From Thermoleophilia bacterium (lineage in GTDB: Bacteria > Actinomycetota > Thermoleophilia > UBA2241): DNA of 62,205 bases. Position 1 is the first letter of the stretch; each line of letters starts with the position of its first letter. The notes beneath the pieces were generated by a model. It ran no database searches. It had not been told where the DNA came from and saw only the letters and a program-made list of their open reading frames with translations. The stretch covers positions 1 to 62,205 of the forward strand of contig JBKQWK010000018.1 in the NCBI GenBank assembly GCA_052139595.1, written 5' to 3'. The translations under genes were made by a program, and so were the position numbers. Positions 34,075 through 49,103 of the stretch are shown here, in pieces.

Positions 34075-37026
34075 TCAGACCTCGTTCGCACTGACGACGA
34101 CGGCAAACGGCACGCCGAGCGCCGCGAAGTGCTGCTGCCCACAACGTACCTTGTCTGCCTCGCTGGTGCGCAGCTTGAGAAAGTCACGTGTGCCCTTGGT
34201 CTCGCGTACGAGGTAGAGCGGTCCGCCATCTTCTTTGAGGATCGCCCAGTCGGGGTTGTACTTGCCGACCGGCGTGTCGATCTCAAACCAGCGCGGCAGC
34301 TTGACGAACAGCTTGATGTCGTCGCGCGCGTCGAGCTGACGGGCAAACTCGCGCTCGACCTCGGAGTCGTAGGCGACGTACTCATAGACCGAGTTGTGCA
34401 CCGGCAGTGCGCTCAAGTAGTTGACCAGCTCTTCATTCTTGAAGAGCAGCATCTGCCACTCTGCCTCGGTACCGGTGCCGCCAACGCGCTCGTACTTGAT
34501 GCCGTCGACGAGCAGGCGGTGCAGCTCGTGCTTGAGGATCGTCGCGACGGCATCGAGAAACTGCTGCGGGTTGTGAAACAGCTCGCCCACGCGGCCGGAG
34601 GCGCGCAGAATGCGCACCAGCGTCGAGCGCGTCAGCTCCGTCTCATTTTGCAGGTAGGCAAGCACGTCGGGGATCGGTTCGTCGGCGTGTTCGACGCGTT
34701 CTTCGGCGGCGCTTGACGGTGCCGCCGTAACGCCGCCCTTTTCGACACTGAGCCGGCCGGCGCTGACGCGAATACGCGGCTTGTCGATCGCCGGCATGAG
34801 CTTGATGGCATCGACAGCGTGCTTGACGAGTTCCTCACTGTCGAACTCAACGTGGTAGGTGGTCCTGGGCTTGATGCGGTCCCAGAGCGCCTTGAACTCC
34901 GGCGTGAGCGTGACTTCGCGACGCAGACGATTGGTCCTCTCGTCGCGGTCGCGGCGGATGTGGCGCTCGATCTTATAGGCCGAGAGCAGGTCGATGACCG
35001 CCGGCGCAAGCTCTGCGTGCGCCGGCGGCAGCTCAAGTGCGAAGCCGGCCCGCCGGGGGTCAAACGCTGGCTGGATGCGGCCGGCTGAGTCGAGCAGCTT
35101 CTGCTCGACAAGGGCCGCGCGTAGCTCTTCGGCGGCGGCGCGGCCGATAGGCTGCTCGCCGCCGTCGACCACGCGGCTGAGCTTGGCAAACGCGGTCAGT
35201 GGCACCTTGCCGAAGGTGACGCCACAGTCCTCTTCGTATTCGCTCTGCAGGGCACGGGCGAACTCCTCATAGCTTTCGTTGGCCATCACGTAGAGGCGAT
35301 TGATCGACTCATCGAAGACACGCTTGCCGTCCTGATCGACCGGCAGGCGCAAGCCGCGGCCGATCTCCTGACGCTTCTTGATCGCACTGCGCGTCTCATT
35401 CAGGGTGCAGATCTGAAAGACGTTGGGGTTGTCCCAGCCTTCGCGCAGCGCTGAGTGGCTAAAGATGAAGCGCAGCGGCTCATCGACGGAGAGGAGCCGC
35501 TCCTTGTCTTGCATGATGAGGGCATAAACATCGTCGTCGGCCTGCGTGTCACGGCCTTCGCGTGAATCCTTGACGACACCCTTCTTATCCTGGGCAAAGT
35601 AGCCGTTGTGGAGGCGCTCGACCGGTTCTTTGAGCCAGGCAAGCGCCGCATACTGCGGCTCGCGCGCCAGCGCCGCCAGTTCGGCCTCAAACACCTGGGC
35701 GAACTTGCCTTTGGCCGGGTGGCCGGCCTCGTCGTAGTCGCGATAGTTGGCCACCCGATCGACGAAGAACAGCGAGAGCACCTTGATGCCGCGCTCTCTG
35801 ACCTCGAGTTCCTTGTCGAGGTGACGACGGATCGTGTGCTTGATCTGTGCCCGCCAGATGTCGTCGCGCAGGCCGCCCATCTCTTCGCCCAGGCGCAGCG
35901 TGCGACCGTTGCTGAAGCGCACGAACTCGGCGCCCGGCTCGGCGTTGATCTCGGCGACCTCGAAGCCATCCGCGTAGGCGGCGCGCTCGCTCGACAGTGC
36001 GTAGAGGTCGGCGCCGCTCTTTACCGTCAGTGACTTCTCCTTGGGGCCGCCGTTCGTCTGCACCTGCAGACGCAGCTTGGCCTTGATACCGTTTTCGTAC
36101 TCGATGCGCTCGACGCGTACGAAGGCGTCATTGGCGGCGCCTTCGGCGACGGTGCTGGCGACGACGATCTGCTTGACGAGCTTAAGCTCAAAGGCGCGCA
36201 CCGGATCGAGCCGGTAGACGAGGTTATAGACGTTGCGGTGGGTGGCCGAGTAGCGCAGCGTGCACAGCGGGTTGAGCGCCCGGATCGCCTCCTGCGCCTT
36301 GTCGGTCGAGTCGACGCTCTGCGGTTCGTCGATGATTACGATCGGCCGGGCCGCCTGCACGAACTCGATGGGCTGGCGGCCCGAGAGCCGGTCGCTCTCC
36401 TTGTAGATCACGTTGCTCTTCTGCTCATCCTCGGTGCCGGTGAAGTTCTTGCGAAAGGCGTCAATGTTGATGATCAGGATCTGCAGCGTGGTGGACGTCG
36501 CAAACTGGCGCAGGCGGTTGACGCGCCTCGCGTCGTACACAAAGTGCTCGAACGGCAGGTTGTTATACAGGGCGCGGAAGTGCTCGGCCGTGATCTCGAT
36601 GTTCTTGAGCACGCCCTCGCGGATGGCCACGCTGGGCACCACGATGACGAACTTCTGGAACCCGTAGCGCTGCGAGAGCTCGAAGATGGTGCGCAGGTAC
36701 ACGTAGGTCTTGCCGGTGCCGGTCTCCATCTCGACGGTGAAATCGCCTGACGCCAACGAGGCCGAAGGACGCAGGCCGTTGCGAAGCTGGATATCGCCGA
36801 GGTTGGCCAGGATTTCTTCGTCGAGCAGGTGCAGGCGGTTGCCGATGCCCAGTTCGTTCTCCATGCCTGGCAGGCGAAGCTGAAGGCCGACATCGCTGGT
36901 GACGGTGAACTCCGTGCGGCAGGTCTCTTGGCCCTTGAACAGATCGCAGACGGCCTCGATGGCGTCTTTCTGAAAGCTCATGTGGTCATCGGTGTATGGG
37001 TTCTCGAAGTGCAGTTTCATGGTCAT
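34075..37026 (-). CDS. Type III restriction enzyme Res subunit (SF2 helicase plus PD-(D/E)xK nuclease)
   Basis: METGTGKTYVY Walker A and VIIDEPQS DEAH-variant box. Helicase C-terminal motifs (FIFSHSALREGWDNPNVF). C-terminal nuclease motif YNPDWAIL...LVRETKG. Confidence 0.9.
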   Translation of the reverse strand: MTMKLHFENPYTDDHMSFQKDAIEAVCDLFKGQETCRTEFTVTSDVGLQLRLPGMENELGIGNRLHLLDEEILANLGDIQLRNGLRPSASLASGDFTVEMETGTGKTYVYLRTIFELSQRYGFQKFVIVVPSVAIREGVLKNIEITAEHFRALYNNLPFEHFVYDARRVNRLRQFATSTTLQILIINIDAFRKNFTGTEDEQKSNVIYKESDRLSGRQPIEFVQAARPIVIIDEPQSVDSTDKAQEAIRALNPLCTLRYSATHRNVYNLVYRLDPVRAFELKLVKQIVVASTVAEGAANDAFVRVERIEYENGIKAKLRLQVQTNGGPKEKSLTVKSGADLYALSSERAAYADGFEVAEINAEPGAEFVRFSNGRTLRLGEEMGGLRDDIWRAQIKHTIRRHLDKELEVRERGIKVLSLFFVDRVANYRDYDEAGHPAKGKFAQVFEAELAALAREPQYAALAWLKEPVERLHNGYFAQDKKGVVKDSREGRDTQADDDVYALIMQDKERLLSVDEPLRFIFSHSALREGWDNPNVFQICTLNETRSAIKKRQEIGRGLRLPVDQDGKRVFDESINRLYVMANESYEEFARALQSEYEEDCGVTFGKVPLTAFAKLSRVVDGGEQPIGRAAAEELRAALVEQKLLDSAGRIQPAFDPRRAGFALELPPAHAELAPAVIDLLSAYKIERHIRRDRDERTNRLRREVTLTPEFKALWDRIKPRTTYHVEFDSEELVKHAVDAIKLMPAIDKPRIRVSAGRLSVEKGGVTAAPSSAAEERVEHADEPIPDVLAYLQNETELTRSTLVRILRASGRVGELFHNPQQFLDAVATILKHELHRLLVDGIKYERVGGTGTEAEWQMLLFKNEELVNYLSALPVHNSVYEYVAYDSEVEREFARQLDARDDIKLFVKLPRWFEIDTPVGKYNPDWAILKEDGGPLYLVRETKGTRDFLKLRTSEADKVRCGQQHFAALGVPFAVVVSANEV

Positions 37027-37030
37027 CCTC

Positions 37031-38983
37031 CTACAGGCTCCTCACGTTTTCCAGACCGTTCTGCTGGAGAATGGCGGCCAGGTTGGTCTTGGCAACGTCA
37101 TCGGCCTCCGGCGGCGCACCTTTCTTGGAAGGCCGAGTGAACGCGCTGTCGCGGAAGACGACCTGGGATTCACCCACGGGGGCCAGTTCCTTGTGCCACG
37201 CGGCGATGCCCAGCGCCAGCGATTCCACCTCGGCGGTGGCGATCTGTTCGGCGAGGCAGACCAGGAGGACACCTGCGCCGATGCTGTGGACCGTCTTGCC
37301 CGCAACGCACTTCTGCTCGATGGGCACGGTAAGGTCCAGGCCGAGCTTCAAGAGCAGCTCGAAGAGAATGTCCTGCTCTGTGCGGTCGGCCTTCAGGTGC
37401 TCGGTGTGCTCATGGAGCGTTGTCGCAAGGTTGTCGCGGTCCGGCTCCCACGCTCGGATGTTGCTGGAGGCCAGCTTGAAGACGCGGAAACCGAGGTCAC
37501 CCGCGAACATGGGGTTTTCTTCTCGGGTCTTCTTCCCCGCACGGCGCAGACGTTCTTTGCATACCTCTGCGAGATTTCGGGGTTTCTTCAGCTTGTCGCA
37601 GAAAGCGGCGGCCGTCTTCTGATCCTTGTTCTCCGGGTCAAGCGGCTCGGGAAGTTGCACAAGGATATAGCGTCTGGCTCCTCCGTCGTCCTTGTTCTGC
37701 CGAAGTACCGCGTGGCCCGTCGTCCCCGAACCAGCAAAGAAATCGAGGATCAGGGCATCTTCGTCTTTCTCGTCATTGATCGTGAGCGATAAGAGTTTTG
37801 CGATCAGGCCCACCGGCTTAGGAAACGAGAAGACGCCATCGCCGAGCAGCAGTTCCATCTCTTTCGAGCCCTCCTGATTAAAGGGGCCAATCATAATGGA
37901 GAGAGGCTTCATCTCTCGCATGTCACCGTTTTCGTCCTTCAGGTACTGTTTTACCCTGACGCTGACCTTCCCGTTCGTTTCATTGACGACGACCTCATCG
38001 TTGGCGATAGCGGCTTCAACTCGATCTTTAGCCCAGATCCACTGCTTCTCTGGCCAAATCTCGCGTCCGTTGATTGTGATCGGGTATCGAAGGTTCGGAC
38101 GGTCGTCTTTGCTGCTGGTGGCAAGTGGCTGCGTAACGAAGCCACCACGGGTCTTCAAGACGAAGTCCCGATCGAACGCGAATCCATGAGTGTTCAACGA
38201 CTCCAGCAGGTCCTCCATCTTCTCATCGGCGACATCCCAGCTAGCGCTCAGCAACGAGAACAAGAGATCCGACTTACCCAGTTTCGTCCCACCCGAGTTG
38301 GCGCGGATGAAGACTTCGACCACGTCGTCTTCCTTGTAGAGCGCAGGATTGTCGATGCTGTCCAGCTCCTGGTAGGTCAGAGCCTCGTCCATCTTGAACG
38401 TCCGGTCAATCAAATCCAGATGGTCCTTGAGCTTGTCGTTTTCATCCTTGGTCAGCGCAGGACCGGCGGCCGCCTGTAGGGAATCGAGCACTTCACGTTG
38501 TTTCTTGATGGTGAAGACGAGGTCCTTGAACTTCACCCAAGGGAAGGTGATAGAGGCAGGAGGCAGGAACTTGAACTTGTACTTCACGTCATCCGGGGCG
38601 GCGACCTCACCGCTCAAAATGTCAAAACACAGCTCTTTGCCCTCGAAACTACCGCACAGCCCAATGAAGAGGCTTTGCAAGCGCTGTTGGCCGTCGAGAA
38701 CGAGGCACTTCTTCTTGGCGTTGGTGGGCACATAGAAATCGCTCAGGCGGAGCGTGTACTTCCAGTTGTCGATGAACTTGCGATGACGGATTGTGCTCGT
38801 GGTCTTCCAAATCAACAACGTGCTGATGGGGTACTCGCGCAGGATAGAATCGAACAGCCTGCAAATCTGCTCTTCGCTCCAGACGAACGGCCGCTGGATG
38901 TTGGGAAGCCAGAAGCCTCCCTCCTCTTCGTCGTTGTTGAGAAATGTGACGATCTTCCTGATGGTCTGCTTCTGGTTCTTCAT
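37031..38983 (-). CDS. Fusion protein: N-terminal DUF262 (GmrSD-type ParB-like NTPase domain) plus the C-terminal half of a Type III Mod methyltransferase; no catalytic motif IV
   Basis: Residues 1-265 carry LPNIQRPFVWSEEQICRLFDSILREYPISTLLIW, DGQQRL and FIRANSGGTKLGKSDLLFSLL (DUF262). From about residue 270 come YPITINGREIWPEKQWIWAKDRV, FSFPKPVGLIAKLL and the SAM motif I LILDFFAGSGTTGHAV, as in beta-class Mod. No DPPY/NPPY/NPPF occurs anywhere in the 650 aa. Confidence 0.8.
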   Translation of the reverse strand: MKNQKQTIRKIVTFLNNDEEEGGFWLPNIQRPFVWSEEQICRLFDSILREYPISTLLIWKTTSTIRHRKFIDNWKYTLRLSDFYVPTNAKKKCLVLDGQQRLQSLFIGLCGSFEGKELCFDILSGEVAAPDDVKYKFKFLPPASITFPWVKFKDLVFTIKKQREVLDSLQAAAGPALTKDENDKLKDHLDLIDRTFKMDEALTYQELDSIDNPALYKEDDVVEVFIRANSGGTKLGKSDLLFSLLSASWDVADEKMEDLLESLNTHGFAFDRDFVLKTRGGFVTQPLATSSKDDRPNLRYPITINGREIWPEKQWIWAKDRVEAAIANDEVVVNETNGKVSVRVKQYLKDENGDMREMKPLSIMIGPFNQEGSKEMELLLGDGVFSFPKPVGLIAKLLSLTINDEKDEDALILDFFAGSGTTGHAVLRQNKDDGGARRYILVQLPEPLDPENKDQKTAAAFCDKLKKPRNLAEVCKERLRRAGKKTREENPMFAGDLGFRVFKLASSNIRAWEPDRDNLATTLHEHTEHLKADRTEQDILFELLLKLGLDLTVPIEQKCVAGKTVHSIGAGVLLVCLAEQIATAEVESLALGIAAWHKELAPVGESQVVFRDSAFTRPSKKGAPPEADDVAKTNLAAILQQNGLENVRSL

Positions 38984-39756
38984 GGGGCATCTCCTGCTAC
39001 GAGTCTTTGTTCAGCGGCGGCCAGTTCGGCTTCGAGCCGTTTGATTTTGAGATTCAGTTCCACAAGGCGGTTGATCTGCTTCTCCTTCTTCGCCTTGGCC
39101 CGCAAGACGGTCAGATCGCGCTGAAGCTGGGCGTGGGCGTCCAAGCCCTCCCGCACGGCAGAACCACGGTCGGTGGACTCCGGCGGCGCGAACGTGCCGG
39201 TGATCTCGGCTGCCTCCAGCGCCGCCACGCGGTCCAGCCAGCCCTGGTAGACCGCGTACAGGTTGCCGGAAGGCTGGCTGGCCAAAGGAAGACTGGCCAG
39301 GAACGCCGCTTCTTCCGCCGTGGGTGCGTCTGGCTGAAACGGGGCCGTGCGGCGGACGTCCTCGATCACCACCTTGCCCTTCTCGCCCTGCGACCAGCGC
39401 TTGTGGGCCAGCGACAGGCTGAAGGTATCACCGTGGGCGGTCACGAGCACGACCGGATAGGGCACCGCCCTGTGTATCAACTCGACCAACCGGGGCGGCT
39501 TGGCGGCGGCGCGCAGCACGACACTGAGCACGACGATTTCCAGGTACTCCCGTGCGTCGTCGCGGAAGATCGGCACGCCGATGTTGGTGGGCTTCAACGC
39601 CGCGATCCAGGTCAGCTCCTCGATGCCGTCCTGTAGGTATCGCTTGTCGGCGGGCGTGGGCGCGCCCTGCTCCAGCAGCAGCTTCTTGGGCACCCGCTGG
39701 TCCACGCGGGCGTCCGGCGGCAGCGCCAGGGCATTGATGAGCGTGGCGATGCTCAT
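38980..39756 (-). CDS. DUF4391-like protein
   Basis: The opening LINALALPPDARVDQRVPKKLLLEQGAPTPADKRYLQDGIEELTWIAALKP matches my memory of DUF4391 proteins found beside SNF2/Mod/Res genes. The C-terminus is a coiled coil. Confidence 0.55.
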   Translation of the reverse strand: MSIATLINALALPPDARVDQRVPKKLLLEQGAPTPADKRYLQDGIEELTWIAALKPTNIGVPIFRDDAREYLEIVVLSVVLRAAAKPPRLVELIHRAVPYPVVLVTAHGDTFSLSLAHKRWSQGEKGKVVIEDVRRTAPFQPDAPTAEEAAFLASLPLASQPSGNLYAVYQGWLDRVAALEAAEITGTFAPPESTDRGSAVREGLDAHAQLQRDLTVLRAKAKKEKQINRLVELNLKIKRLEAELAAAEQRLVAGDAP

Positions 39757-41366
39757 TTTCCCGGGTCCCCTTTCTGACGACGAGAGGATGAGCCCTTTGA
39801 TCCGTTTGTGAGCCCTTTGCGGCGCGATTTCCCGGCACCCGTGGATGTCCCCTTTGTCCCGTTTATGTCCCGTTCGCCGCCCGGTGTGGTGGCGTCTGCG
39901 GATGTCCCCTTTGTCCCCTTTATGTCCCCTTTGCTCGCGAGCACGTAGAACGCGCCCCGCCCCGTCTTGCCGATGCGTGCGACAACACCTTTTGCCACCA
40001 GATCGGCCAAGTCGCGAGATGCGGTTTTCTTGGTCGCTCCCGTTATCTCCTGGTACTCTTGATTGGTGATCCGGCCAGCGGCTTTCAGATGGGCCAGGAC
40101 CCGGCTCTGGCGTTCATTGAGGCCCAGGGCCGCAACGACCTGCTCCGTGAGCCAATCGCGCCAGACCGTAACCGAGAACTCACCGGCGCGCTGCTCGAAG
40201 TCGGGTTCGGGGAGCGAGTGCTCGACGCTCTCGCGGATCATCATCAACGTGCCGGTGCCGTACTTCTCGATATAGCGGGCCAGAAACATGGCTTCGCAAA
40301 TCCCAGCGTTGCGGGCCACGGAGCCGTGGGGCTCGCGCAACCGCTCAAGCGTCAGCGGTGGCGGAAGCACGCCGGGGTTCCAGACCTCCACTCGGTCGGC
40401 GAAAACGGAAACCTGCACTGCGCCTGCCAAGGCGTAGTCGCGGTGGGCGACGGCGTTGACGACGGCCTCGCGCACAACGTCCGGGGGGATTTCGTAGGCA
40501 ACTGGCGCCTGCGCGCTCAGGGCGCGGGTGCCGACGCTGCGGTTGATCACGGAGAGCACGAAGTCCGCCGCTCGGTCCACCTGCTCAAAGAGCCGACCCT
40601 TGAATATCTGGTAGTAGGGGGCTGGCCGCTGGATTTCCGTGCCGTGGAAGTGCATGCAGCGGACCTCAGCGCTGGACACGAATCGCTGGGGATCGCGGCC
40701 GAAGAGCAGCACGGCAGCGTTGGTGGGCTGCCCCTCCACGAGCAGGTGCAAGTGGGCCAACACGTCGGCCTTCGGGGTTCGCGCCGCCAACGGAAACTGC
40801 CGCTCGGCACGGGCGCAGCCAACGAAGTCGGAAACGGCTCGCCCATCAATGTCATCAAGGGTAGCGCCGGGACAGGGGCGCTCGTCGAATGGTCGGTTCT
40901 GGATGACGCCCACGCTTTCCAGGTAATCCACCAGGCTTGCGTAGACCGCATCGGTGAGGTCGGCAGTCTCGGCAAAGCGGCGGCGGATCAACTGCGCCCC
41001 AGCCTTGCGCACCAGGACCTGCATCTTCGGATGACGAGCGGAGTCCTTATCGCCCTTGACGAAGATCAGACGTTCCTTCCCGGTGGCGGTGGCGCGGTCA
41101 AACTCGCGTTCAGTGGGCGACAGGCCCTTAGCGTCCTCGTAGCCGTATTCGTTGCCGAACAGGCCCAGGTAGACGTCGCAACGGTCCACCTCTTTCAGAT
41201 ACACCTCATCTGCGCCGCGGCCGGAGGCGGGCAGGTCCTCGAACAGGAACACATCAAAGAAGCGCCCCAGGAGAGGGTCGCCCCGGATATAGTCCTTCAG
41301 CGCCCGGCGCTCGGCAGCGAGTTCCTTCTGGACTGAGCTGATGAAGATCCTCTTCTTGCCGCTCAT
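39753..41366 (-). CDS. DUF4062 - AlbA_2/Schlafen-like - HATPase_c_4 - wHTH protein with a basic KGT-repeat tail
   Basis: The N-terminal RIFISSVQKELAAERRALKDYI...VYLGLFGNEYGY is DUF4062-like. NAVAHRDYALAGAVQVSVFADRVEVWNPG and ARYIEKYGTGTLMM are typical of the RecG-C-terminal-like ATPase domain. wHTH: RITNQEYQEITGATKKTASRDLADLV. Confidence 0.65.
   Translation of the reverse strand: MSGKKRIFISSVQKELAAERRALKDYIRGDPLLGRFFDVFLFEDLPASGRGADEVYLKEVDRCDVYLGLFGNEYGYEDAKGLSPTEREFDRATATGKERLIFVKGDKDSARHPKMQVLVRKAGAQLIRRRFAETADLTDAVYASLVDYLESVGVIQNRPFDERPCPGATLDDIDGRAVSDFVGCARAERQFPLAARTPKADVLAHLHLLVEGQPTNAAVLLFGRDPQRFVSSAEVRCMHFHGTEIQRPAPYYQIFKGRLFEQVDRAADFVLSVINRSVGTRALSAQAPVAYEIPPDVVREAVVNAVAHRDYALAGAVQVSVFADRVEVWNPGVLPPPLTLERLREPHGSVARNAGICEAMFLARYIEKYGTGTLMMIRESVEHSLPEPDFEQRAGEFSVTVWRDWLTEQVVAALGLNERQSRVLAHLKAAGRITNQEYQEITGATKKTASRDLADLVAKGVVARIGKTGRGAFYVLASKGDIKGTKGTSADATTPGGERDINGTKGTSTGAGKSRRKGLTNGSKGSSSRRQKGDPGK
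39843..39928. repeat. 29-nt direct repeat (28/29 identical, 57-nt period) inside the 3' end of the DUF4062 gene
   Basis: ggatgtcccctttgtccc(g/c)tttatgtccc occurs at 39843-39871 and 39900-39928 and encodes the (D)I(K/N)GTKGTS repeats. A related tgagccctttg doublet lies at 39789-39819. Confidence 0.85.
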
Positions 41367-44300
41367 GGCACCGCCTCCCCGTTACCATCAGGGAGCACGA
41401 CCAGGAAGGCAACGACCTCGAAATCGTTGATCCCCTGGAACTCGCCCTTCATGGCGTGGGTGCCGCCAGGCGTGAACAGGCTGGCGATGGCCCGCTCTTC
41501 CTTCTTACCGACGATCGAGGCGATCGCCTTGGCGAGCAGGTCCTGGGCGGCCCGCATGTCACGGCCGTCCTTCGTGGCCTTGTCGAAACGGGCGCTGGCC
41601 CCAGCATCGGGCATGTCGCGGCCGATGGAGAGCCGTTTCAGCCGGTCGAGTGTCTGCTTGGCCTGGGTGAACGGCAGCAAGACCGCGCCGTCGTCGCCGA
41701 CATGCACGACGTAATGCGGCGCCAAGGGATAGCCTGGCTCGATGGCCTTCAGCGCCCCCTCGCCCACGGCGCGGAGGCAGAAGATCACGCCTGGTGGGAT
41801 AGCCGCCTCGTCGTTTCCCTGGGCCGTGGTGACGGCGAACGTGCCGGGCGGGAGCTTTTCGAGTTGGCCAGGGTGTTCCTTGAGGAAGCCGGAGAGGTCA
41901 ATGCGGAAGTCGTTCAGGGTGAGATCGGCGATGGAAACGCCGCTCGACAGGTCTTCGAGGTCGATGACGGCATCCTGGAGCTTGAGGAGCTGCTTGCGAC
42001 GGTACTCCAGGTCGTTCATCTGGTTGCCCGACTGGTGCTCGATGATATTCTCTTCGCCAGTGGCGGAGATGTCCAAGAGAACCATTCGGCCGCTGACCCG
42101 CTGTTCGAGGTTGATGTACTCCTCCAACTCGATGTTCGGCCAGAAGTTGATGAGCTGGATCCGCTCGTTCACGGATCCGATGCGGTCGATCCGGCCGAAG
42201 CGCTGGATGATACGGACGGGATTCCAGTGGATGTCGAAGTTGATGACGGTATCGCAGTCCTGGAGATTCTGACCCTCGCTGATGCAGTCGGTGGCGATGA
42301 GCAAGTCCACCTCGCCTTCCTCAGCTAGGTCCTCGGGGCGTTCCTTGGCGCGGGGTGAGAAAGCCGTGATGATGCTGGTGAAGTCCTTGCGGAGTTTAGG
42401 TAGCGTAGCCTGGTTATGGCCCGCCCCTGTAACCAAGGCCGAGTGCAGGCCAAGTTCATCCAGCGCCCAGGCGGACAATTCGCCGTACAGGTAGTGGGCG
42501 GTGTCGGCGAACGCCGTGAAGACGAGAAACTTGCGGTTATCGGGGTTGATCGGCTGACGACACTTGCACCGGATGACCTCGCGGAGGGCATCGAGCTTGG
42601 CGTCTCGCACTGCGCTCACCTGCTTTGCGGCCGAGAGGAGCGTGGCAAGCCGGTTGCGGTCCTCGATGAGGTCCTGCCTCCAGCGGATGTGGTCCACGTC
42701 CCGAAGCAGCACCTTGACCTTGCGCCCGACCAACAGGCTCTCGAAGGCCGGATCGTCCACGTCTACGTCTTCAATGTCAACCTCGTCGACCGACTCGGCG
42801 TGGGCGTCGAGCTTGGTCAGAGTGGCTTCCACGTCGGCAAGTTGGCGGGTAAGCGTAAGGGCGAACGAGGTAACCGAGCTTTCCATCCGTTTCAGGACGT
42901 TGACCCGTAGCAGGTGGATCAGGCTTTCTTCGCGGTCCACCTGGCGGAAGAAGCTCTCGCCACCGCGAATTTTGGTGCTGTACTTGGCGTCGTAGGCCGC
43001 CTGCCGGTGCGGTAGGACATATCGCAGGGGCGCGTAGGCGCTGAGGTTGAGGCGGCGGATCTCGTTGTTGATCTCGCGGATGGAACGGAACTCACCCGCC
43101 TTGTCCACGTCGGACTTGATGTTGACGGGCTTCAGACGCTCGGGGAACCGGCCCGTCTCGCGGGTGCCGTAGTATTTCTCGACGTGCTTGCGGGACCGCG
43201 CGATGGTCAACAGGTCCAGCAGCTTGAAGTAGTCGAAACCGAGCATGTCGATCAACCGTGCCGGGCGCCGCTCGGCCTCTTCTAAGGCCAACCAGCGGTT
43301 GAATTGGAGTTGGGCCTGGCGCACCGTGGCTTCGACGCTGGGGACACCTTGGTCGAGCAGGGCAGTATCATCGCCCTCGGTCACGAAGGCGATCTGGTTC
43401 TTCAGGTCGGCAAGCCGGTTGTTGACCGGAGTGGCCGAGAGCATCAGGACGCGGGTCTTGACCCCCTCCTTGATGATCCGCCGCATGAGGCGATCATAAC
43501 GGGTTTCGCGATCGTTGTGGCTGGACTTGTTGCGGAAGTTGTGCGACTCGTCGATGACCACCAGGTCGTAGTTGCCCCAGTTGACGTGGGCCAGGTCGAT
43601 GTCGCCGGAGTTGCCACCATCGCGGGAAAGGTCCGTGTGGTTGAGTACGTCGTAGCCGAAACGGTCGGCAGCCAGGAAGTTACGGCGGTCGTTGGCCTTG
43701 TAGAGCGTCCAGTTGTCGCGGAGCCGCTTCGGCACCAGGACCAGCACGCGGTCGTTGCGCAGATCGTAGTATTTGATGATAGCCAGGGCCTCGAACGTCT
43801 TGCCGAGGCCAACGCTATCGGCGATGATACACCCGCCAAGGCGCTCCAGCTTGTCGATCGCCCCGACCACTCCATCCCGCTGAAACTTGTAGAGCTTCTT
43901 CCACACCGTGGTGTTGCGGATGCCGGTGGCCGACTTGACGATGCGTTCCTCGTCCAGTTCGTCGCCGAGGTCCTTGAAAACACGGAAGAGGGTCAGGTAG
44001 TAGATGAGCGAGGGGGGCTTGGGATCGAAAAGATTCTGGAGCCCCGAAAGGAAGGCCCCCTTCTGTTGGTCGGAAACGGGCAGCGTATTCCAAAGGCTGG
44101 TGAACCACGCCCCAAGGACAGCCGATTCATCGGGGCGCTCGGAGCACTGGATCAGGCTGAATTGATTCCCTGGGGTCAGGCCCAACCCTTCGGTCGTAAA
44201 CGCGCAGTTGCCGGTAATGACCAAGCGAAGCTCCAATTCCGGCTTCCCGACGATGAGAATGGACTGCGGCAGCAAGGTGGGGGCGCTTCGCAACTCGACC

Positions 44301-44617
44301 TTTTCCTTGATCCACGCGGCGCACTCCCGAGCCAGCCAGCGGACTTGAAGGCGGTTACGAAAGGCGCGGTCGTTGTCGGAGCCGGTCAGGCCGAGATCGG
44401 CACCATTGATGGCGGGGAGGACCAAGCGGCAGGTGGTGAGCTTCTCCAGGACTTCGCGCAGCTCGGCAAAGGCGAAGAGGGAAAACGCCGGTGACGCCAG
44501 GTCAAGCGACGACGACGACGCGAGGGCCTGACGCAGTTCGTCGATCACGCGGTCGTTGCCTGTGTTCTTAATAAGTTTCATGGGTGCCGTCTTGACGGGG
44601 GCCGAAAGTGGCGTCAT
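41363..44617 (-). CDS. SNF2-family helicase with an N-terminal degenerate PLD-like domain
   Basis: LADSVGLGKTFEALAII (motif I), VVIDESHNFRN (DExH), LMLSATPVNNRL, and C-terminal helicase motifs (HWNPVRIIQRFGRIDRIGS). The N-terminus has ITGNCAFTTEGLG but no H-x-K. Confidence 0.85.
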   Translation of the reverse strand: MTPLSAPVKTAPMKLIKNTGNDRVIDELRQALASSSSLDLASPAFSLFAFAELREVLEKLTTCRLVLPAINGADLGLTGSDNDRAFRNRLQVRWLARECAAWIKEKVELRSAPTLLPQSILIVGKPELELRLVITGNCAFTTEGLGLTPGNQFSLIQCSERPDESAVLGAWFTSLWNTLPVSDQQKGAFLSGLQNLFDPKPPSLIYYLTLFRVFKDLGDELDEERIVKSATGIRNTTVWKKLYKFQRDGVVGAIDKLERLGGCIIADSVGLGKTFEALAIIKYYDLRNDRVLVLVPKRLRDNWTLYKANDRRNFLAADRFGYDVLNHTDLSRDGGNSGDIDLAHVNWGNYDLVVIDESHNFRNKSSHNDRETRYDRLMRRIIKEGVKTRVLMLSATPVNNRLADLKNQIAFVTEGDDTALLDQGVPSVEATVRQAQLQFNRWLALEEAERRPARLIDMLGFDYFKLLDLLTIARSRKHVEKYYGTRETGRFPERLKPVNIKSDVDKAGEFRSIREINNEIRRLNLSAYAPLRYVLPHRQAAYDAKYSTKIRGGESFFRQVDREESLIHLLRVNVLKRMESSVTSFALTLTRQLADVEATLTKLDAHAESVDEVDIEDVDVDDPAFESLLVGRKVKVLLRDVDHIRWRQDLIEDRNRLATLLSAAKQVSAVRDAKLDALREVIRCKCRQPINPDNRKFLVFTAFADTAHYLYGELSAWALDELGLHSALVTGAGHNQATLPKLRKDFTSIITAFSPRAKERPEDLAEEGEVDLLIATDCISEGQNLQDCDTVINFDIHWNPVRIIQRFGRIDRIGSVNERIQLINFWPNIELEEYINLEQRVSGRMVLLDISATGEENIIEHQSGNQMNDLEYRRKQLLKLQDAVIDLEDLSSGVSIADLTLNDFRIDLSGFLKEHPGQLEKLPPGTFAVTTAQGNDEAAIPPGVIFCLRAVGEGALKAIEPGYPLAPHYVVHVGDDGAVLLPFTQAKQTLDRLKRLSIGRDMPDAGASARFDKATKDGRDMRAAQDLLAKAIASIVGKKEERAIASLFTPGGTHAMKGEFQGINDFEVVAFLVVLPDGNGEAVP

Positions 44618-44627
44618 GCTCGCCGCT

Positions 44628-44855
44628 TCAACGCGGTTGGTGGGGTCGGCGCCAGCCGGTTGGAAACTTTCCTGACTCCTCGATTTGCCGGAGCAGTTCC
44701 TCCAGGTCGGCCTTCTTGAAGAGTCGGTAGCCGCTGATCGGGTTACGGTACACGGCCATTTTGCCGTCTCGATGCCAGTTCCTGAGCGTGTTGGGCGATA
44801 CGCCTAGAAACTTGGCCGCCTGCTTGATCGTCACGAACTCGTCCAGCTTGGTCAT
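44628..44855 (-). CDS. Excisionase/MerR-type HTH DNA-binding protein
   Basis: MTKLDEFVTIKQAAKFLGVSPNTLRNWHRDGKMAVYRNPISGYRLFKKADLEELL is a typical HTH_17/excisionase-family domain. The gene ends 10 nt before the SNF2 start. Confidence 0.7.
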   Translation of the reverse strand: MTKLDEFVTIKQAAKFLGVSPNTLRNWHRDGKMAVYRNPISGYRLFKKADLEELLRQIEESGKFPTGWRRPHQPR

Positions 44856-44994
44856 CAAAGCTACTCGCCGATTCGCGTTCCTCCTGGTCGCATGGTAGTC
44901 AAGGTTACCAAGACTATGTTCGGATCGCAAGCAGCCATGAAAAAGAAAAATCGGCTCATCGAAAGTTCTCGCGGCAAGATGTTCGCAGGCTTGG

Positions 44995-45873
44995 TCAAAC
45001 CAAACCTTCGTCTGCCAAGCCGGTCGGAACCCGACCGAGCACGTCCCGATGCACCACGCTCCCTTTCCTCATGACGATCTTCGGCAGCGTGCGCCCGTGC
45101 CCAGTCCAAACCAGGGCCGGATGCGGTCGGCGGTAGTGGGGCATGACCTCGATCTTCGCGCCCACGTTCCACCCCACTTTGCCGCGGCGGTGGGCCTTCT
45201 CTACGTACTTATGGTCACCACTTTCCTCGTACTTCGGCCGGTCGTCGGCCAACACGTCCGGCGTGATGACGTCGGGGTCATCGGCCAACAGGCAGAGCAT
45301 CGCACAGAGCCGCAGGCAATCCTGCGCCATCGGGAGGTGCTGCTCGGAGAAGAAACTGCCGCTCACGACATAGCTCTGCGTATTGACGGCCGACTCCTGG
45401 AAGGATCGCTCCAGGGTCTTGCCCGGCTCGCAACCGAGCGTCATGTGCAGGTTGAACAGGCCCGTAGGCCCCATGAAGTTCACCCACAGGCGAAGATCGT
45501 CGGCATCTTCCTGGTACATGAGCGCCGTATGAACGCCAGGCAGGCCGCCGATCGGTTTCTCGGCCGGCAAGCGGATCGCCAGTGCCCGCAGCGGGGTATG
45601 GATCAAGCTCGCGTCGAGATCCAGCCGCAGTTTCAAGAGGGCAGGGACGATGGCCGGCCAGAGTTGGTAGTAGGGTCGGTGGAGCCGCTGCCAAACGCCC
45701 TCGGCCAGGACCAGACCGTTACCCGTTCTACCGCCGCCAGCCACGGAAGCAGCGTAAAACTGGTCGGCAGTAACATGGCGTGGGAGCTGTTCCCGCATCT
45801 CCTCCCACATTGTCCGATACTCGTGAAACTTCACGGTCGCGTCCCCTGATCTTTCCAGATTCCAGAATAACAC
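44995..45873 (-). CDS. Hypothetical protein (292 aa), no family recognised
   Basis: Long ORF with ordinary amino-acid composition, on the same strand and upstream of the HTH gene. Confidence 0.5.
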   Translation of the reverse strand: MLFWNLERSGDATVKFHEYRTMWEEMREQLPRHVTADQFYAASVAGGGRTGNGLVLAEGVWQRLHRPYYQLWPAIVPALLKLRLDLDASLIHTPLRALAIRLPAEKPIGGLPGVHTALMYQEDADDLRLWVNFMGPTGLFNLHMTLGCEPGKTLERSFQESAVNTQSYVVSGSFFSEQHLPMAQDCLRLCAMLCLLADDPDVITPDVLADDRPKYEESGDHKYVEKAHRRGKVGWNVGAKIEVMPHYRRPHPALVWTGHGRTLPKIVMRKGSVVHRDVLGRVPTGLADEGLV

Positions 45874-46085
45874 GGGGATCGTTCGCAGTCACCCAGGCGA
45901 GTGAGGAACAGAGCAGGACGTAGATAGGACCACGACACCGACGAATTGTGACCGTGACGAGGATTCGGATTCCAGACCACGGCGAACGAAATGGTGATGG
46001 TGCGGAAGTTGGAGTATCGCCGTGCGGCTGGTCCTCGAACGCTGCGCGATGGCCGTTCCGGAAATCGGTGTCGTCAGCGCTTCCC

Positions 46086-46328
46086 TCAATCCGTCATCGC
46101 CGCCTTGATCGCCTGCAACTCTTCCATCGGTTCCTGATTGAAACACTCCATCTTGCCGGCTCGACGATACCAGTACCGGCTGTTGTCGAGGTCGCCCTCG
46201 ATCTTGTGCAGTACGGCGTGAATCCAGGCGGCACTCGGGTCCTCCTCGAATTGCTGCACAATGCGGTGGGCGCTATCCCAGTGCCCCTCGGTAGCCAGGT
46301 CGATGGCTTTGAGCAGATCGTCTTTCAT
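46086..46328 (-). CDS. Small hypothetical helical protein (80 aa)
   Basis: Balanced composition (MKDDLLKAIDLATEGHWDSAHRIVQQFEEDP...). No family recognised. Confidence 0.4.
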   Translation of the reverse strand: MKDDLLKAIDLATEGHWDSAHRIVQQFEEDPSAAWIHAVLHKIEGDLDNSRYWYRRAGKMECFNQEPMEELQAIKAAMTD

Positions 46329-47180
46329 GCCGGAACACCCTCGATTGCCGATTCCAACCCCGTCCCCATTCTACCGCGCCGTCGTAACAAGAGAACCGTC
46401 CGATCTGATTGATCCCGCTCTCCGATCGCACGTTTCGTCGCATACCCGACGATGTTGCCAAGGAGCGAAATAACGGCCCGAAACGCGTCAATATCTATGG
46501 AGCGGGTCGCTTAGACTCGGGAATCCCGAGTAGACCCGTTCCGAAGGCCCCGCTCTCAGCCATCCCTGGCCGGGGACTTCGGCTGCCTGACGGACGATGC
46601 GTAGCATGTGCTCTGGCAGTCGGACGCCAACCGGATTCCACCGGCCGTCGATGACTGGTGACGTTCCTCCCTGGGCGATGGCGAAGCGGCGGCCGGTCCG
46701 CCAACTGGTCGCCGGTCCGGCCTGCCTCCTTCAGACTTGGGACTTCGCGCTGAACAAGGTGCCGTGACCACCGGCTAACCTCACGTTGTACCGATCTGAT
46801 AAAATGAAGCAAACACAATCCAAAAACTGGTTTTGGCGTTCGAGATTTCAGACCTTCTCTGCTTTGCCGACTCTTCCCAATTTCCGTTTTTCGTCCACTT
46901 CGGCGTGAATGATCGAGGGTTTCAACCCCTGCGGTCAGGATGCCCCGTTTCCAGGCCCCGGGAAGGCCCCTGGCGTTCGTCGCGGATGCCGGGGTGCCAA
47001 GAGCCCGTGCGGCTGGCCGTGCCGTCAGCGGGCCTGCTAGGGGCCTCAGCAAGACAGCTCGCTAGAAACGTAAAAAAACGCCCGTTTCACCCTCTTCAGG
47101 AGTAGTACCATGATCCTGTTGACCTCGACCTTCGCGTGTGCCATTGTCGCAGTCATGCCTCGCAACGGATCGACCAGCAT

Positions 47181-47348
47181 ATGTCGCCTGGATACCCGTC
47201 CGGCTCTGCCGGGACCCTTTTCATCGTTGTCGCCTGCCTCGTTGTCGCAGGTGTAATGTCGTACGTCACCGCAACCTACGGACACTGGCCTTTTATAGTG
47301 GCCGGCATCCTCGTGGGCCTGTTGGCCGTGTCGTCCATTAGCAAGTGA
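47181..47348 (+). CDS. Small two-TM membrane protein
   Basis: MSPGYPSGSAGTLFIVVACLVVAGVMSYVTATYGHWPFIVAGILVGLLAVSSISK. It ends 12 nt before the DUF1257 start. Confidence 0.3.
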   Translation: MSPGYPSGSAGTLFIVVACLVVAGVMSYVTATYGHWPFIVAGILVGLLAVSSISK

Positions 47349-47359
47349 TAGGAAAAACC

Positions 47360-47731
47360 GTGAGTCACACCGTCACCATCAAGACCGAAATCCGGGACCG
47401 CTCGGCTGTCGAAGCCGCGTGTCGCCGCCTCGGCTTGGCTCAGCCTGTCGAGGGCAAGGCCACGCTCTTCAGCGGCGAGGTCTCTGGGCTGGCCGTCCAG
47501 TTGCCCGACTGGCAGTACCCCGTGGTCGCCGATCTCACCACCGGCCAACTAAAGTTCGACAACTTCGGTGGCCGCTGGGGCGATCAGAAGGAACTGGACA
47601 AGTTCCTACAAGCCTACGCAGTCGAACGTGCCAGGGCGGAAGCCAGGAAGAAGGGCTACTCCGTAGCCGAGCAGCAGTTGAGCGACGGCTCCGTCAAGCT
47701 CACCATCCAGGTCGCAGGAGGTGCCGCATGA
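47360..47731 (+). CDS. DUF1257-like protein
   Basis: (V)SHTVTIKTEIRDRSAVEAACRRLGL...WQYPVVADLTTGQLKFDNFGGRWG fits my recollection of DUF1257. The GTG start is preceded by GGA. Confidence 0.55.
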   Translation: MSHTVTIKTEIRDRSAVEAACRRLGLAQPVEGKATLFSGEVSGLAVQLPDWQYPVVADLTTGQLKFDNFGGRWGDQKELDKFLQAYAVERARAEARKKGYSVAEQQLSDGSVKLTIQVAGGAA

Positions 47732-47922
47732 GCCGAAGCATCGAAATCACCGTCAACACGAAGGGCGAGACCACCGTCACGACCAAGGGTTTCGTCGGAT
47801 CGTCATGCCGGGAAGCAAGCAAGTTCGTCGAGGAGGCCCTCGGCCAGCGGCTCGACGAGCGGCTCACTGTGGAGTTCCATCAGGTCCAATCCGTCGAGCA
47901 GAACGCTCAGCAGCGGGCCTGA
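47728..47922 (+). CDS. DUF2997-like small protein
   Basis: MSRSIEITVNTKGETTVTTKGFVGSSCREASKFVEEALG. ATGA overlap with the DUF1257 stop; this pair commonly co-occurs. Confidence 0.5.
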   Translation: MSRSIEITVNTKGETTVTTKGFVGSSCREASKFVEEALGQRLDERLTVEFHQVQSVEQNAQQRA

Positions 47923-48266
47923 TCTTCCTGGAGCTGATCCGCAGCCAAGCACGATACCCGGCCTCCATCGGAAGCCGATTGCCGTAACCGCCGCCGGAAC
48001 GTCCGGCAGGACGGCATCGCCTCAAAAAAGAACAGGTGCGATCGGCACGAACAATCGGACGCGCCGAACCGTTCCTGGAACACGATGCCGTTCATTTCCA
48101 AAAGCACGGACGCCCACTTGCACTCGCTCCGATGTTCGTCCGCGGTGTACCATACCTCCACGAGGTCGGTGACTTCGCAGAGGTAGTCCACGTGCCAGTG
48201 GAGCGTCTTGTTTGTCTTGGCATGCCACATGATTCGCGCCGCCAGCCCTCGACCGCCGATTTTCAC
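47907..48266 (-). pseudogene. 5'-truncated DUF123 (GIY-YIG superfamily) remnant
   Basis: It has the family's C-terminal blocks (HWHVDYL, ECKWA, FGASDCSCRSHLFFF). The N-terminal GxYxYVGSA part is missing, and an in-frame TGA lies 7 codons upstream of the GTG. Confidence 0.45.
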
Positions 48267-48285
48267 GGAGGTCGGGGGCTTTTTT
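48246..48285 (+). terminator. Intrinsic-terminator-like hairpin with T6 tract
   Basis: ccctcgacc-(15 nt)-ggtcggggg pairs 9 bp (one G-U) and is followed by cttttttc. Confidence 0.45.
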
Positions 48286-48472
48286 CATTTCTTGCCCGCC
48301 GCGGATCTCATCCCGGCACACCCACTGGAGATTTCGATGACCGCCTCCGTTTTGATCGTGAGTTCGCTCTTGACCGTCTTCTTGATCGCTGTTCTGGCGC
48401 GCGAAATTCGGCTCAGGACCGCGATGCAGCGGCTACTGTCGCGTCTTTTGATCCGTTGGAGGACCCCGCCGA

Positions 48473-49039: not shown

Positions 49040-49064
49040 ACGTTCCTTTTCGCCCTGCGATGTA

Positions 49065-49103
49065 GCGGGGCGGTTTGTGTTTTTTTCAACACAGCCGCCC
49101 CGC
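49065..49103 (+). terminator. GC-rich stem-loop after the lipoprotein gene
   Basis: gcggggcgg ... ccgccccgc with further pairing (tgtgt/acaca) and a T-rich loop. An overlapping alternative hairpin is ccgccccg-ca-cggggcgg. Confidence 0.4.

What the first reader, a model, noticed from the sequence alone, without database searches (positions are those of the whole stretch)
37031..38983. DUF262 (GmrSD-type) domain fused in frame to only the C-terminal half of a Type III Mod
One 650-aa ORF changes identity at about residue 265-270 (FDRDFVLKT | RGGFVTQPL). Upstream is a complete-looking DUF262 domain (DGQQRL, FIRANSGGTKLGKSDLLFSLL), but the usual DUF1524 His-Me nuclease partner is absent. Downstream are the post-TRD and SAM-binding motif I/II/III parts of a beta-class Mod (FSFPKPVGLIAKLL, LDFFAGSGTTGHAV), but motifs IV-VIII are absent.

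In Type III systems the Mod dimer supplies DNA recognition and docks Res. This product might therefore still dock Res while replacing methylation and recognition with a ParB-like NTPase.
Basis: partly seen in the sequence, partly recalled or inferred. Interest (0 to 1): 0.75.

Follow-up and report, generated by a model that had tools for sequence, protein, structure and literature searches.

The report
Deletion-made fusion of two defence genes
The 650-residue protein is real, but it is what remains after a deletion of about 1.7 kb joined two neighbouring phage-defence genes and removed the catalytic half of each, so it is most likely a recent broken allele rather than a new kind of enzyme.

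Summary
ORF 37031-38983 (-) encodes a complete DUF262/GmrSD_N domain (aa 1-278) joined in frame to aa 277-637 of a Type III Mod. It has no DUF1524 nuclease and no methyltransferase motifs IV-VIII.

The origin is ordinary. Relatives carry the operon SNF2/HKD helicase - DUF4391 - full GmrSD-like gene (~562 aa) - full Mod (~630 aa) - Res. In those relatives the DUF4391 stop overlaps the GmrSD start exactly as it does here. One in-frame deletion from GmrSD codon 279 to Mod codon 276 explains the ORF.

The junction is not an assembly error. The identical 1953-nt gene occurs in two other assemblies, which carry a different Res allele.

No protein with this architecture was found in 5.8 billion protein clusters, 1.84 billion representatives or 185,579 species genomes. 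The Mod remnant keeps most of the TRD, motifs X and I-III, and the Res-contacting C-terminal domain. It lacks the dimerisation domain and half of the Rossmann fold.

The adjacent Res in this window is itself a hybrid of two Res families from codon ~110, so it is not the remnant's cognate partner.

Neither half shows decay at conserved sites, so the deletion is probably recent. A new function is not excluded, but nothing supports it.

The parts
38150..38983 (-). Fusion ORF codons 1-278. This is the complete DUF262/GmrSD_N domain of a BrxU/HEC-05-like GmrSD gene. It carries RLFDS (38846-38860), DGQQR (38681-38695) and FIRANSGG...LFSLL (38249-38311).
   Evidence: Pfam GmrSD_N covers aa 15-245. 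PADLOC HEC-05 covers aa 1-278. It is 88% identical to aa 1-278 of the 568-aa DUF262+DUF1524 protein P0020. It aligns to BrxU (7P9K) residues 16-292.
38149..38151 (-). Deletion junction (..TTGAAGAC[C]CGTGGTGG..). GmrSD-like sequence ends here and Mod sequence begins. There is 0-1 nt of possible microhomology.
   Evidence: blastn shows fusion nt 1-833 matching the GmrSD genes of L004/L005 and nt 835-1951 matching the L003 Mod from its nt 829. No repeats flank the junction.
37031..38149 (-). Fusion ORF codons 279-650 plus the stop. This is the Type III Mod remnant: most of the TRD, motif X region (FSFPKPVGL, 37805-37831), motif I (LDFFAGSGTTGHAV, 37706-37747), motifs II-III, and the C-terminal domain (~37034-37381). 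The N-terminal domain and motifs IV-VIII are missing.
   Evidence: It is 80% identical to aa 270-637 of the 637-aa Mod P0001. PADLOC MTase_III matches at 7.9e-84. It matches EcoP15I, H. pylori and Mbo45V Mod structures. The fold search puts 4ZCF and 6K0W on top. There is no DPPY-type motif.
38980..39756 (-). DUF4391 gene (258 aa). Its stop overlaps the fusion ORF start (ATGA), as in relatives that have an intact GmrSD-like gene.
   Evidence: Pfam DUF4391 at 2.2e-73. The same overlap is present in L004 and L005.
39753..41366 (-). Embedded 537-aa gene (DUF4062 + HATPase_c_4 + winged HTH) between the SNF2 and DUF4391 genes. It is absent from most relatives.
   Evidence: Pfam. A homologous insert is present in L034 and L068 only.
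41363..44617 (-). SNF2-family helicase (1084 aa; PADLOC 'HKD+Snf2'). It is the first gene of the conserved SNF2-DUF4391-Mod-Res core.
   Evidence: Pfam SNF2-rel_dom and Helicase_C. PADLOC C3a139 at 3.5e-120. It is 62-86% identical in about 40 related loci.
34075..37026 (-). Type III Res (983 aa, intact: SF2 helicase plus RE_endonuc domain). It is itself a hybrid. Codons 1-109 are of the Res family that partners this Mod. Codons 110-983 are of a different Res family. The crossover lies in the Walker-A coding motif at about 36700-36714.
   Evidence: Pfam and PADLOC REase_III at 1033 bits. L001 and L002 carry the cognate-family Res after the same fusion.
44628..44930 (-). Small HTH_17/MerR-like gene immediately upstream of the SNF2 gene. 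It is a likely regulator, or an excisionase-like gene, of the locus.
   Evidence: Pfam HTH_17 at 7.7e-12. The same gene is called in L001.

Best explanation
The ORF is the product of one in-frame deletion of about 1.7 kb in a five-gene defence operon: SNF2/HKD helicase - DUF4391 - GmrSD-like Type IV nuclease - Type III Mod - Type III Res. This window has an extra DUF4062 gene in the operon.

The deletion runs from codon 279 of the GmrSD-like gene to codon 276 of mod. It removed the linker and DUF1524 nuclease of the first gene, the intergenic spacer, and the N-terminal dimerisation domain and catalytic motifs IV-VIII of the second gene.

Shown:
- the two parental gene types and their adjacency in relatives;
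- the exact breakpoint;
- the absence of the catalytic motifs;
- the authenticity of the junction.

Inferred:
- The product can neither methylate nor cut DNA. The GmrSD-type defence is lost, because BrxU and HEC-06 need the His-Me motif. The Type III methylation and target delivery are lost, because half of the Rossmann fold and the dimer interface are gone.
- The allele is tolerated because Type III Res depends on Mod for DNA recognition.
- The event is recent, because neither half has begun to decay.
For: Parental genes and the breakpoint:
- All strong homologues fall into two classes. One class is Mods of ~637 aa that align only to aa 272-650 (up to 80% identity). The other is DUF262+DUF1524 proteins of ~563 aa that align only to aa 1-278 (up to 88% identity).
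- Loci L005, L006, L007 and L016 carry SNF2 - DUF4391 - GmrSD(562) - Mod(628) - Res(990) in this order and orientation. L004 has the same order up to its contig end.
- The DUF4391-stop/GmrSD-start overlap (ATGA followed by AAGAACCAGAAGCAGACCAT) is the same in the window as in L004 and L005.
- The DNA breakpoint resolves to 1-3 nt.
- The missing halves are nowhere else in the 62-kb window. No other amino-methyltransferase motif IV occurs in any long ORF.

Authenticity of the junction:
- The junction is identical in ENA ERZ25039593 contig_11625 and in NCBI GCA_052916005.1. Both carry a different Res allele from the window, so at least two haplotypes share it.

No conserved fusion family:
- No protein spans both halves among 5.8 billion clusters or 1.84 billion representatives.
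- No such locus occurs among 68 loci from GTDB species genomes.

Loss of function:
- His-Me mutants of BrxU and HEC-06 lose defence (bioRxiv 10.1101/2024.01.29.577857).
- In EcoP15I, Mod dimerises through its NTD and MTase domain. The MTase domain is built from residues 62-262 plus 390-516 (PMC4490356).

Other deletions in the family:
- Another relative, L031, has its SNF2 gene broken by an internal deletion.
Against: - The fusion is in frame and the ORF is intact.
- It has 0 of 162 changes at conserved DUF262 sites and 1 of 130 at conserved Mod sites. This fits a recent deletion but also fits continued selection.
- Translational-coupling signals to DUF4391 upstream and Res downstream are kept.
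- The DUF262 domain is complete. The Res-contacting C-terminal domain is retained and is the only confidently predicted part of the remnant.
- No near-identical intact parent allele was found, so the deletion is inferred from relatives that are only 80-88% identical.
Confidence: 0.85

Rival explanations
1. The fusion has a new function. The DUF262 NTPase, joined to the Mod TRD remnant and C-terminal domain, docks onto Res (or onto the SNF2/DUF4391 proteins) and acts as a sensor or regulator in place of the methyltransferase.
For: - The ORF is in frame and intact, with no decay at conserved sites.
- The DUF262 domain is complete and has RLFDS and DGQQR.
- The CTD that contacts Res in EcoP15I ModA is retained.
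- Operon coupling is preserved.
- Res is intact in the window.
Against: - It is a singleton. No homologue with this architecture exists in any collection searched.
- It is fully explained by one deletion between adjacent genes.
- The NTD and half of the MTase fold, both needed for Mod dimerisation and part of the Res interface, are gone.
- Res in the window belongs to a different family from codon 110 onward, only 42-54% identical to the cognate family.
- Res delivered to DNA by a non-methylating Mod remnant would be expected to harm the host.
- AlphaFold gives low confidence for the TRD and half-MTase region. This is weak evidence because the alignment was shallow.
Confidence: 0.07
2. The junction is an assembly or binning chimera that joins two unrelated contigs.
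For: - The window appears to be a metagenome-derived contig.
- GC content drops in the DUF262 part (0.54, against 0.59-0.66 in the neighbouring genes).
- A second hybrid junction exists about 1.4 kb away, inside Res.
Against: - The 1953-nt gene is identical in two other assemblies from different archives, on contigs of 385 kb and 5.9 kb, which differ from the window downstream.
- No repeat or shared sequence at the junction could mislead an assembler.
- The same GC drop is seen in intact GmrSD-like genes of relatives (0.54 in L004 and L005).
Confidence: 0.02
3. The cause was not a simple deletion. Instead, a recombination brought a partial GmrSD cassette into an operon that had only SNF2-DUF4391-Mod-Res, and replaced the 5' half of mod.
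For: - Both four-gene forms (L003 and many others) and five-gene forms of the operon exist.
- The GmrSD-like gene also occurs in other contexts: L010, L012, L014, L015 and L020.
- The Mod remnant is closest to a Mod from a four-gene locus (P0001/L003, 80%).
Against: - This needs two precise junctions. One of them reproduces exactly the DUF4391/GmrSD overlap seen in five-gene relatives. A deletion needs only one event.
- L004, which has the closest GmrSD (88%), has a Mod N-terminus 84% identical to that of L003. The five-gene form therefore exists with this Mod lineage.
Confidence: 0.05

Closest known systems
BrxU / HEC-05 (GmrSD-like Type IV restriction enzymes, DUF262 + DUF1524)
   Same: The N-terminal 278 residues are a complete DUF262 domain with the RLFDS and DGQQR motifs. 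They align to BrxU (PDB 7P9K) residues 16-292 and to the PADLOC HEC-05 model. In relatives the full gene is nested inside a multi-gene defence operon in the same orientation. This is the 'embedded' arrangement described for BrxU/HEC-05 in BREX, Hma and Type I RM loci (bioRxiv 10.1101/2024.01.29.577857).
   Different: The linker and the DUF1524 His-Me nuclease domain are absent. Mutating that motif abolishes defence in BrxU and HEC-06. The host operon here is a Type III-like system with SNF2 and DUF4391 genes, not BREX, Hma or Type I.
Type III Mod subunit (beta-class N6-adenine methyltransferase; EcoP15I Mod, PDB 4ZCF; H. pylori Mod, 6K0W)
   Same: Residues 279-650 are 80% identical to the C-terminal 361 residues of a 637-aa Mod. 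They include most of the TRD, motif X, motif I (FAGSGTT), motifs II-III and the C-terminal domain. The fold search returns 4ZCF and 6K0W as the top matches.
   Different: It lacks the N-terminal dimerisation domain and motifs IV-VIII, including DPPY. It therefore cannot be a methyltransferase and probably cannot form the Mod2 dimer that recognises DNA and carries Res.
Type III RM systems with an extra helicase/ATPase gene 5' of mod (Murray et al. 2021, PMC8259958) and other methylation-based multi-ATPase systems (e.g. MANTIS/Gao_RL, bioRxiv 10.64898/2026.09.23.753747)
   Same: The parent operon has a Type III Mod and Res preceded by a second SF2/SNF2 ATPase.
   Different: The parent operon also has a DUF4391 gene and an HKD-type N-terminus on the SNF2 protein. 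I did not test whether it is the same family as the Murray et al. group. MANTIS uses an AAA+ ATPase, and nothing found here links it to DUF4391. The window's copy lacks a working Mod.
Chimeric pseudogene or remnant ORF made by an intergenic deletion
   Same: A single deletion joins the 5' part of one gene to the 3' part of the next, in frame, leaving an ORF that automatic annotation reads as a two-domain protein.
   Different: Nothing material. The only unusual aspect is that both partners are defence genes and that both lose their catalytic halves in the same event.

Membership tests
GmrSD/BrxU-type Type IV restriction enzyme | DUF262 (GmrSD_N) NTPase domain with the DGQQR motif | tested here: met
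   Pfam PF03235 at E 5.3e-29, covering nearly the full profile. DGQQR is at aa 97-101 and RLFDS at aa 42-46. It aligns to BrxU 7P9K.
GmrSD/BrxU-type Type IV restriction enzyme | C-terminal DUF1524 (GmrSD_C) His-Me/HNH nuclease domain with a (D/E)HxxP motif | tested here: not met
   There is no PF07510 hit and no (D/E)HxxP motif. The homologues have PF07510 and DHIFP at residue 451.
Type III Mod (beta-class amino-methyltransferase) | Catalytic motif IV (D/N/S)PP(Y/F/W) and motifs V-VIII N-terminal to the TRD | tested here: not met
   A regex search finds none in the ORF. The parent-type Mod has DPPY at residue 122. The Pfam match covers only profile positions 151-205 of 221.
Type III Mod (beta-class amino-methyltransferase) | SAM-binding motif I (FxGxG) with motifs X, II and III C-terminal to the TRD | tested here: met
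   LDFFAGSGTTGHAV is at aa 413-426. It aligns to the same motif in 6K0W, 7DSU and 4ZCF.
Type III Mod (beta-class amino-methyltransferase) | N-terminal domain and complete MTase core that form the Mod2 dimer | tested here: not met
   Parent residues 1-276 are deleted. The EcoP15I domain map gives NTD 14-60 and MTase 62-262 plus 390-516.
Type III Mod (beta-class amino-methyltransferase) | C-terminal domain that contacts Res (in ModA of EcoP15I) | tested here: met
   The ORF aligns to P0001 through to its last residue and to EcoP15I up to residue 605. pLDDT is 80-95 for the last ~100 residues. Actual binding to Res was not testable.
Functional Type III RM system | An intact Res (SF2 helicase plus PD-(D/E)xK-type endonuclease) together with a cognate, active Mod | tested here: not met
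   Res is intact by domain content. Mod is truncated. No other Mod is in the window. Res is of a non-cognate family from codon 110 onward.
A conserved DUF262-Mod(C) fusion protein family | Homologues with the same two-part architecture in other lineages | tested here: not met
   No hit spans both halves or 23/27. The only full-length matches are 100% identical copies. The junction 41-mer is absent from the JGI metagenome contigs.

The most novel reading that the evidence does not exclude
The in-frame product is kept because it does something. One possibility is that the DUF262 NTPase, tethered through the Mod C-terminal domain to Res (or to the SNF2/DUF4391 proteins), turns a methylation-based Type III-like system into a methylation-independent or modification-sensing one. 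Another is that it acts as a dominant inhibitor that silences Res.
Probability: 0.05. Interest if true: 0.6.

Novelty: already known. Interest (0 to 1): 0.15.

Why it matters
It matters mainly as a calibration case. An ORF that reads like an inventive domain fusion turns out to be a deletion scar once the neighbouring genes of relatives are examined.

It also documents how defence operons decay. One deletion disables an embedded Type IV nuclease and the Type III methyltransferase together. The cell should tolerate this because Type III Res depends on Mod for target recognition.

Annotation pipelines would name this product a 'DUF262 protein' or a 'site-specific DNA-methyltransferase', and neither name describes an activity it can have.

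The more interesting object is the parent. SNF2/HKD - DUF4391 - Mod - Res is a widespread core operon with variable embedded genes. It is found across many phyla, and only two papers in the searched library mention DUF4391 at all, neither in its title or abstract.

Tried and rejected
- AlphaFold on the whole fusion with a mixed alignment (A1). MAFFT aligned the non-homologous halves of the two parent families against each other. The model was poor (mean pLDDT 60, pTM 0.33) and I did not use it beyond the C-terminal domain.
- A second alignment from trimmed locus translations (A2). It was misaligned in the same way and I did not submit it.
- AlphaFold on the Mod remnant alone with 48 full-length Mods (A3). 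The mean pLDDT was 61.9 and only the CTD was confident. The alignment is shallow (65-83% identity), so the low confidence of the TRD and half-MTase part is only weak evidence of instability. Foldseek still placed 4ZCF and 6K0W on top.
- An exact-match scan of the JGI metagenome contigs for a 41-nt junction probe. It gave no hits, so it adds no independent occurrences.
- A search for repeats or microhomology that could explain the breakpoint. Nothing was found beyond one ambiguous base. The true parent sequence is unknown.
- A literature search for DUF4391. It found two incidental mentions and no functional study.
- MANTIS/Gao_RL, considered as the parent system. I rejected it because it uses an AAA+ ATPase and nothing links it to DUF4391.
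- Hma, considered as the parent system. I rejected it because Mod and Res match the PADLOC Type III models and SNF2 gives only a weak partial HmaA hit.
- Using the frameshifted Res of L001 as evidence of decay. I rejected this because L001 differs from the window by about one indel per 2 kb even in the shared region, so its frameshifts may be sequencing errors.
- I did not determine the taxonomy of the host organism. The window has no tRNA genes. It carries multihaem cytochromes, an MqnC-like radical-SAM protein, UbiD and HemB.
Full report
**What is there.** The minus strand between 34075 and 44930 carries a tightly packed operon. Successive genes either overlap by four bases or lie within about ten bases of each other. 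In order:
- an HTH_17/MerR-like gene (44628-44930);
- an SNF2-family helicase of 1084 aa (41363-44617; PADLOC 'HKD+Snf2', 3.5e-120);
- a 537-aa DUF4062/HATPase_c_4/wHTH protein (39753-41366);
- a DUF4391 protein (38980-39756);
- the 650-aa ORF in question (37031-38983);
- a 983-aa Type III Res (34075-37026).

Pfam GmrSD_N covers aa 15-245 over almost the whole profile. Pfam N6_N4_Mtase covers only aa 373-432, which correspond to profile positions 151-205 of 221. PADLOC splits the protein at the same point: HEC-05 matches aa 1-278, and MTase_III matches aa 277-649, aligned to positions 277-620 of a 621-position model. The ORF has no motif IV and no His-Me motif.

**Where the two halves come from.** A search of 5.8 billion protein clusters returned no protein that covers both halves. 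The strong hits fall into two classes:
- Type III Mods of about 637 aa, which align only to aa 272-650 (best is P0001, 80% identity);
- DUF262+DUF1524 proteins of about 563 aa, which align only to aa 1-278 (best is P0020, 88% identity).

The switch is sharp. It falls at ..FDRDFVLKT|RGGFVTQPL.., after residue 278 of the GmrSD-like parent and before residue 277 of the Mod parent. At the DNA level, fusion nt 1-833 match the GmrSD-like genes and nt 835-1951 match mod from its nt 829. One base is ambiguous and there is no useful microhomology. The junction is window 38149-38151.

**The decisive context.** The contigs that encode the best homologues show both parents as complete, adjacent genes in the same operon. 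L005, L006 and L007 read SNF2 - DUF4391 - GmrSD-like (562 aa) - Mod (628 aa) - Res (990 aa). L004 has the same order up to its contig end, and L016 has it in a Verrucomicrobia genome. In these loci the DUF4391 stop overlaps the GmrSD start (ATGA), followed by nearly the same first codons as in the window. A four-gene form without the GmrSD-like gene also exists (L003).

A tblastn survey of 68 loci from GTDB species genomes shows that SNF2 - DUF4391 - Mod - Res is a widespread core. It occurs in Chloroflexota, Planctomycetota, Acidobacteriota, Nitrospirota, many Proteobacteria, Paenibacillus and others. Variable extra genes sit between its members. This matches the 'embedded defence gene' pattern. 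In that pattern, BrxU/HEC-05-type GmrSD proteins are reported nested in BREX, Hma and Type I RM loci in the host operon's orientation (bioRxiv 10.1101/2024.01.29.577857).

The window's ORF therefore needs only one event. That event is an in-frame deletion of roughly 1.7 kb, estimated from L004 and L005, running from GmrSD codon 279 to mod codon 276.

**Is the junction real?** Yes. The exact 650-aa product is encoded on ENA ERZ25039593 contig_11625 (385 kb) and on NCBI GCA_052916005.1 JBLFKZ010141227.1 (5.9 kb). Both are 100% identical to the window over all 1953 nt. Both differ from the window further downstream, so the same junction sits in at least two haplotypes. No repeats at the junction could cause a mis-join. 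The lower GC of the DUF262 part (0.54) is a property of this gene family. Intact copies in L004 and L005 have the same value.

**Is it a family?** No.
- Apart from those identical copies, nothing with this architecture appeared in the cluster search.
- Nothing appeared in an exhaustive HMMER scan of 1.84 billion representatives. Every one of the best 150 hits matches either within aa 1-285 or within aa 249-650.
- Nothing appeared in the GTDB loci.
- A 41-nt junction probe found nothing in the JGI metagenome contigs.
- The missing halves are not elsewhere in the window.
- No stop-free segment of 200 aa or more in the 62 kb contains a (D/N/S)PP(Y/F/W) motif, so no other amino-methyltransferase is nearby.

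**What the product can and cannot do.** The EcoP15I Mod domain map (PMC4490356) gives NTD 14-60, MTase 62-262 plus 390-516, TRD 263-384 and CTD 539-644. The parent Mod aligns to EcoP15I residues 18-250 and 353-572. Together these place the break about 14 residues into the TRD.

The remnant therefore keeps most of the TRD, motifs X and I-III, and the CTD. It loses the NTD and motifs IV-VIII. In EcoP15I the Mod dimer forms through the NTDs and MTase domains. [quoted passage not shown]

I infer that the remnant cannot methylate, is unlikely to dimerise, and has only half of its Rossmann core. AlphaFold runs were of limited value. Only the last ~100 residues (the CTD) were confidently predicted. 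Foldseek did place EcoP15I Mod and H. pylori Mod on top.

On the other side, the DUF262 domain is complete. However, BrxU and HEC-06 lose defence when the His-Me motif is mutated, and here the whole nuclease domain is gone.

The most likely state is therefore a double loss of function. The cell should tolerate it because Type III Res depends on Mod for target recognition.

**Points in favour of function, and how I weigh them.**
- The fusion is in frame. A random deletion has a one-in-three chance of that.
- The ORF is intact and the coupling signals to its neighbours are kept.
- I compared the ORF with 65 GmrSD-like and 47 Mod homologues. It has 0 changes at 162 conserved DUF262 columns and 1 at 130 conserved Mod columns, fewer than the median homologue.

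This is what a recent deletion predicts. It is also what continued selection predicts, so it does not discriminate between the two. The gene is a singleton with a one-step origin, so I put about 85% on a deletion origin (a non-functional remnant is the most likely outcome) and about 5-7% on a retained or new function.

**A second hybrid next door.** The window's Res is also a mosaic.
- Its first 109 codons are identical at the DNA level to those of L001 and L002. In codons 61-109 they are 92-94% identical to the Res that partners this Mod family.
- From codon 110 onward it is 87-95% identical to a different, equally widespread Res family (P0272, P0273). It is only 42-54% identical to the cognate one.
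- That second family sits in operons of the form SNF2 (~950 aa, no DUF4391) - Mod (627 aa) - embedded genes such as RhuM - Res (994 aa).
- The crossover lies in the conserved Walker-A coding motif, at about 36700-36714.
- L001 and L002 continue with the cognate-family Res. L002's contig ends 44 nt past the crossover.
- No independent contig carries the hybrid Res.

I therefore cannot tell whether it is a genuine recombinant or a chimeric contig. Either way, it weakens the idea that the Mod remnant docks onto the Res encoded beside it in this window.

**Verdict.** The explanation is ordinary: a deletion scar in a decaying or rearranging defence locus, not a new fusion enzyme. The parent operon family is the more interesting lead.

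Noticed in passing
window 34075-37026 (-), crossover about 36700-36714: The Type III Res gene is a hybrid of two Res families. Codons 1-109 are of the family that partners this Mod and are identical to L001 and L002. Codons 110-983 are 87-95% identical to a different Res family. The switch lies in the Walker-A motif. The hybrid is not corroborated by any independent contig, so it could be a real recombinant or a chimeric contig join.
   Followed up: partly
window 34075-44930 (-); loci L003-L069: SNF2/HKD helicase - DUF4391 - Type III Mod - Type III Res is a conserved four-gene core found in many phyla. Variable genes are embedded between SNF2 and DUF4391, between DUF4391 and Mod, and between Mod and Res. 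The full-text search found only two incidental mentions of DUF4391.
   Followed up: partly
window 39753-41366 (-): A 537-aa gene is embedded between the SNF2 and DUF4391 genes. It has DUF4062, HATPase_c_4 and a winged HTH, plus a Gly/Lys/Ser/Thr-rich C-terminal tail. It has weak PADLOC similarity to pAgo-associated PNTD modules. Homologous inserts at the same position occur only in L034 and L068.
   Followed up: no
L076-L079 (relatives of the window's Res 3' part): A second Type III-like family has an SNF2 helicase of ~950 aa 5' of mod, no DUF4391, and embedded genes between SNF2, Mod and Res (RhuM, OLD-like ATPase-TOPRIM, SLFN/AlbA_2, DUF3800). It may be the 'third group' with an extra helicase described in PMC8259958. 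I did not test this.
   Followed up: no
L031:2456-4508: A relative has its SNF2 gene broken by an out-of-frame internal deletion of about 385 codons. It also has a 1233-aa gene embedded between DUF4391 and Mod. This is another example of deletion decay in this operon family.
   Followed up: partly
L001:11958-15000: In the ENA contig, the cognate-family Res that follows the same fusion is split over several reading frames. The contig also shows about one indel per 2 kb relative to the window in the shared 12.4 kb. The frameshifts may therefore be sequencing errors rather than true pseudogenisation.
   Followed up: partly
window 37106-37138 (-): The Mod C-terminal domain has an 11-residue insertion (TRPSKKGAPPE, aa 616-626) relative to its closest homologue, P0001.
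   Followed up: no
window 45000-53800: Upstream of the operon is a stretch of short ORFs mostly without Pfam matches. It includes a PD-(D/E)XK nuclease (52126-52944) and a leucine-rich-repeat protein (50432-51223), and is followed by a 1221-aa protein with an FGE-sulfatase domain (53763-57428). It could be part of a mobile or defence island. No tRNA or integrase was identified.
   Followed up: no
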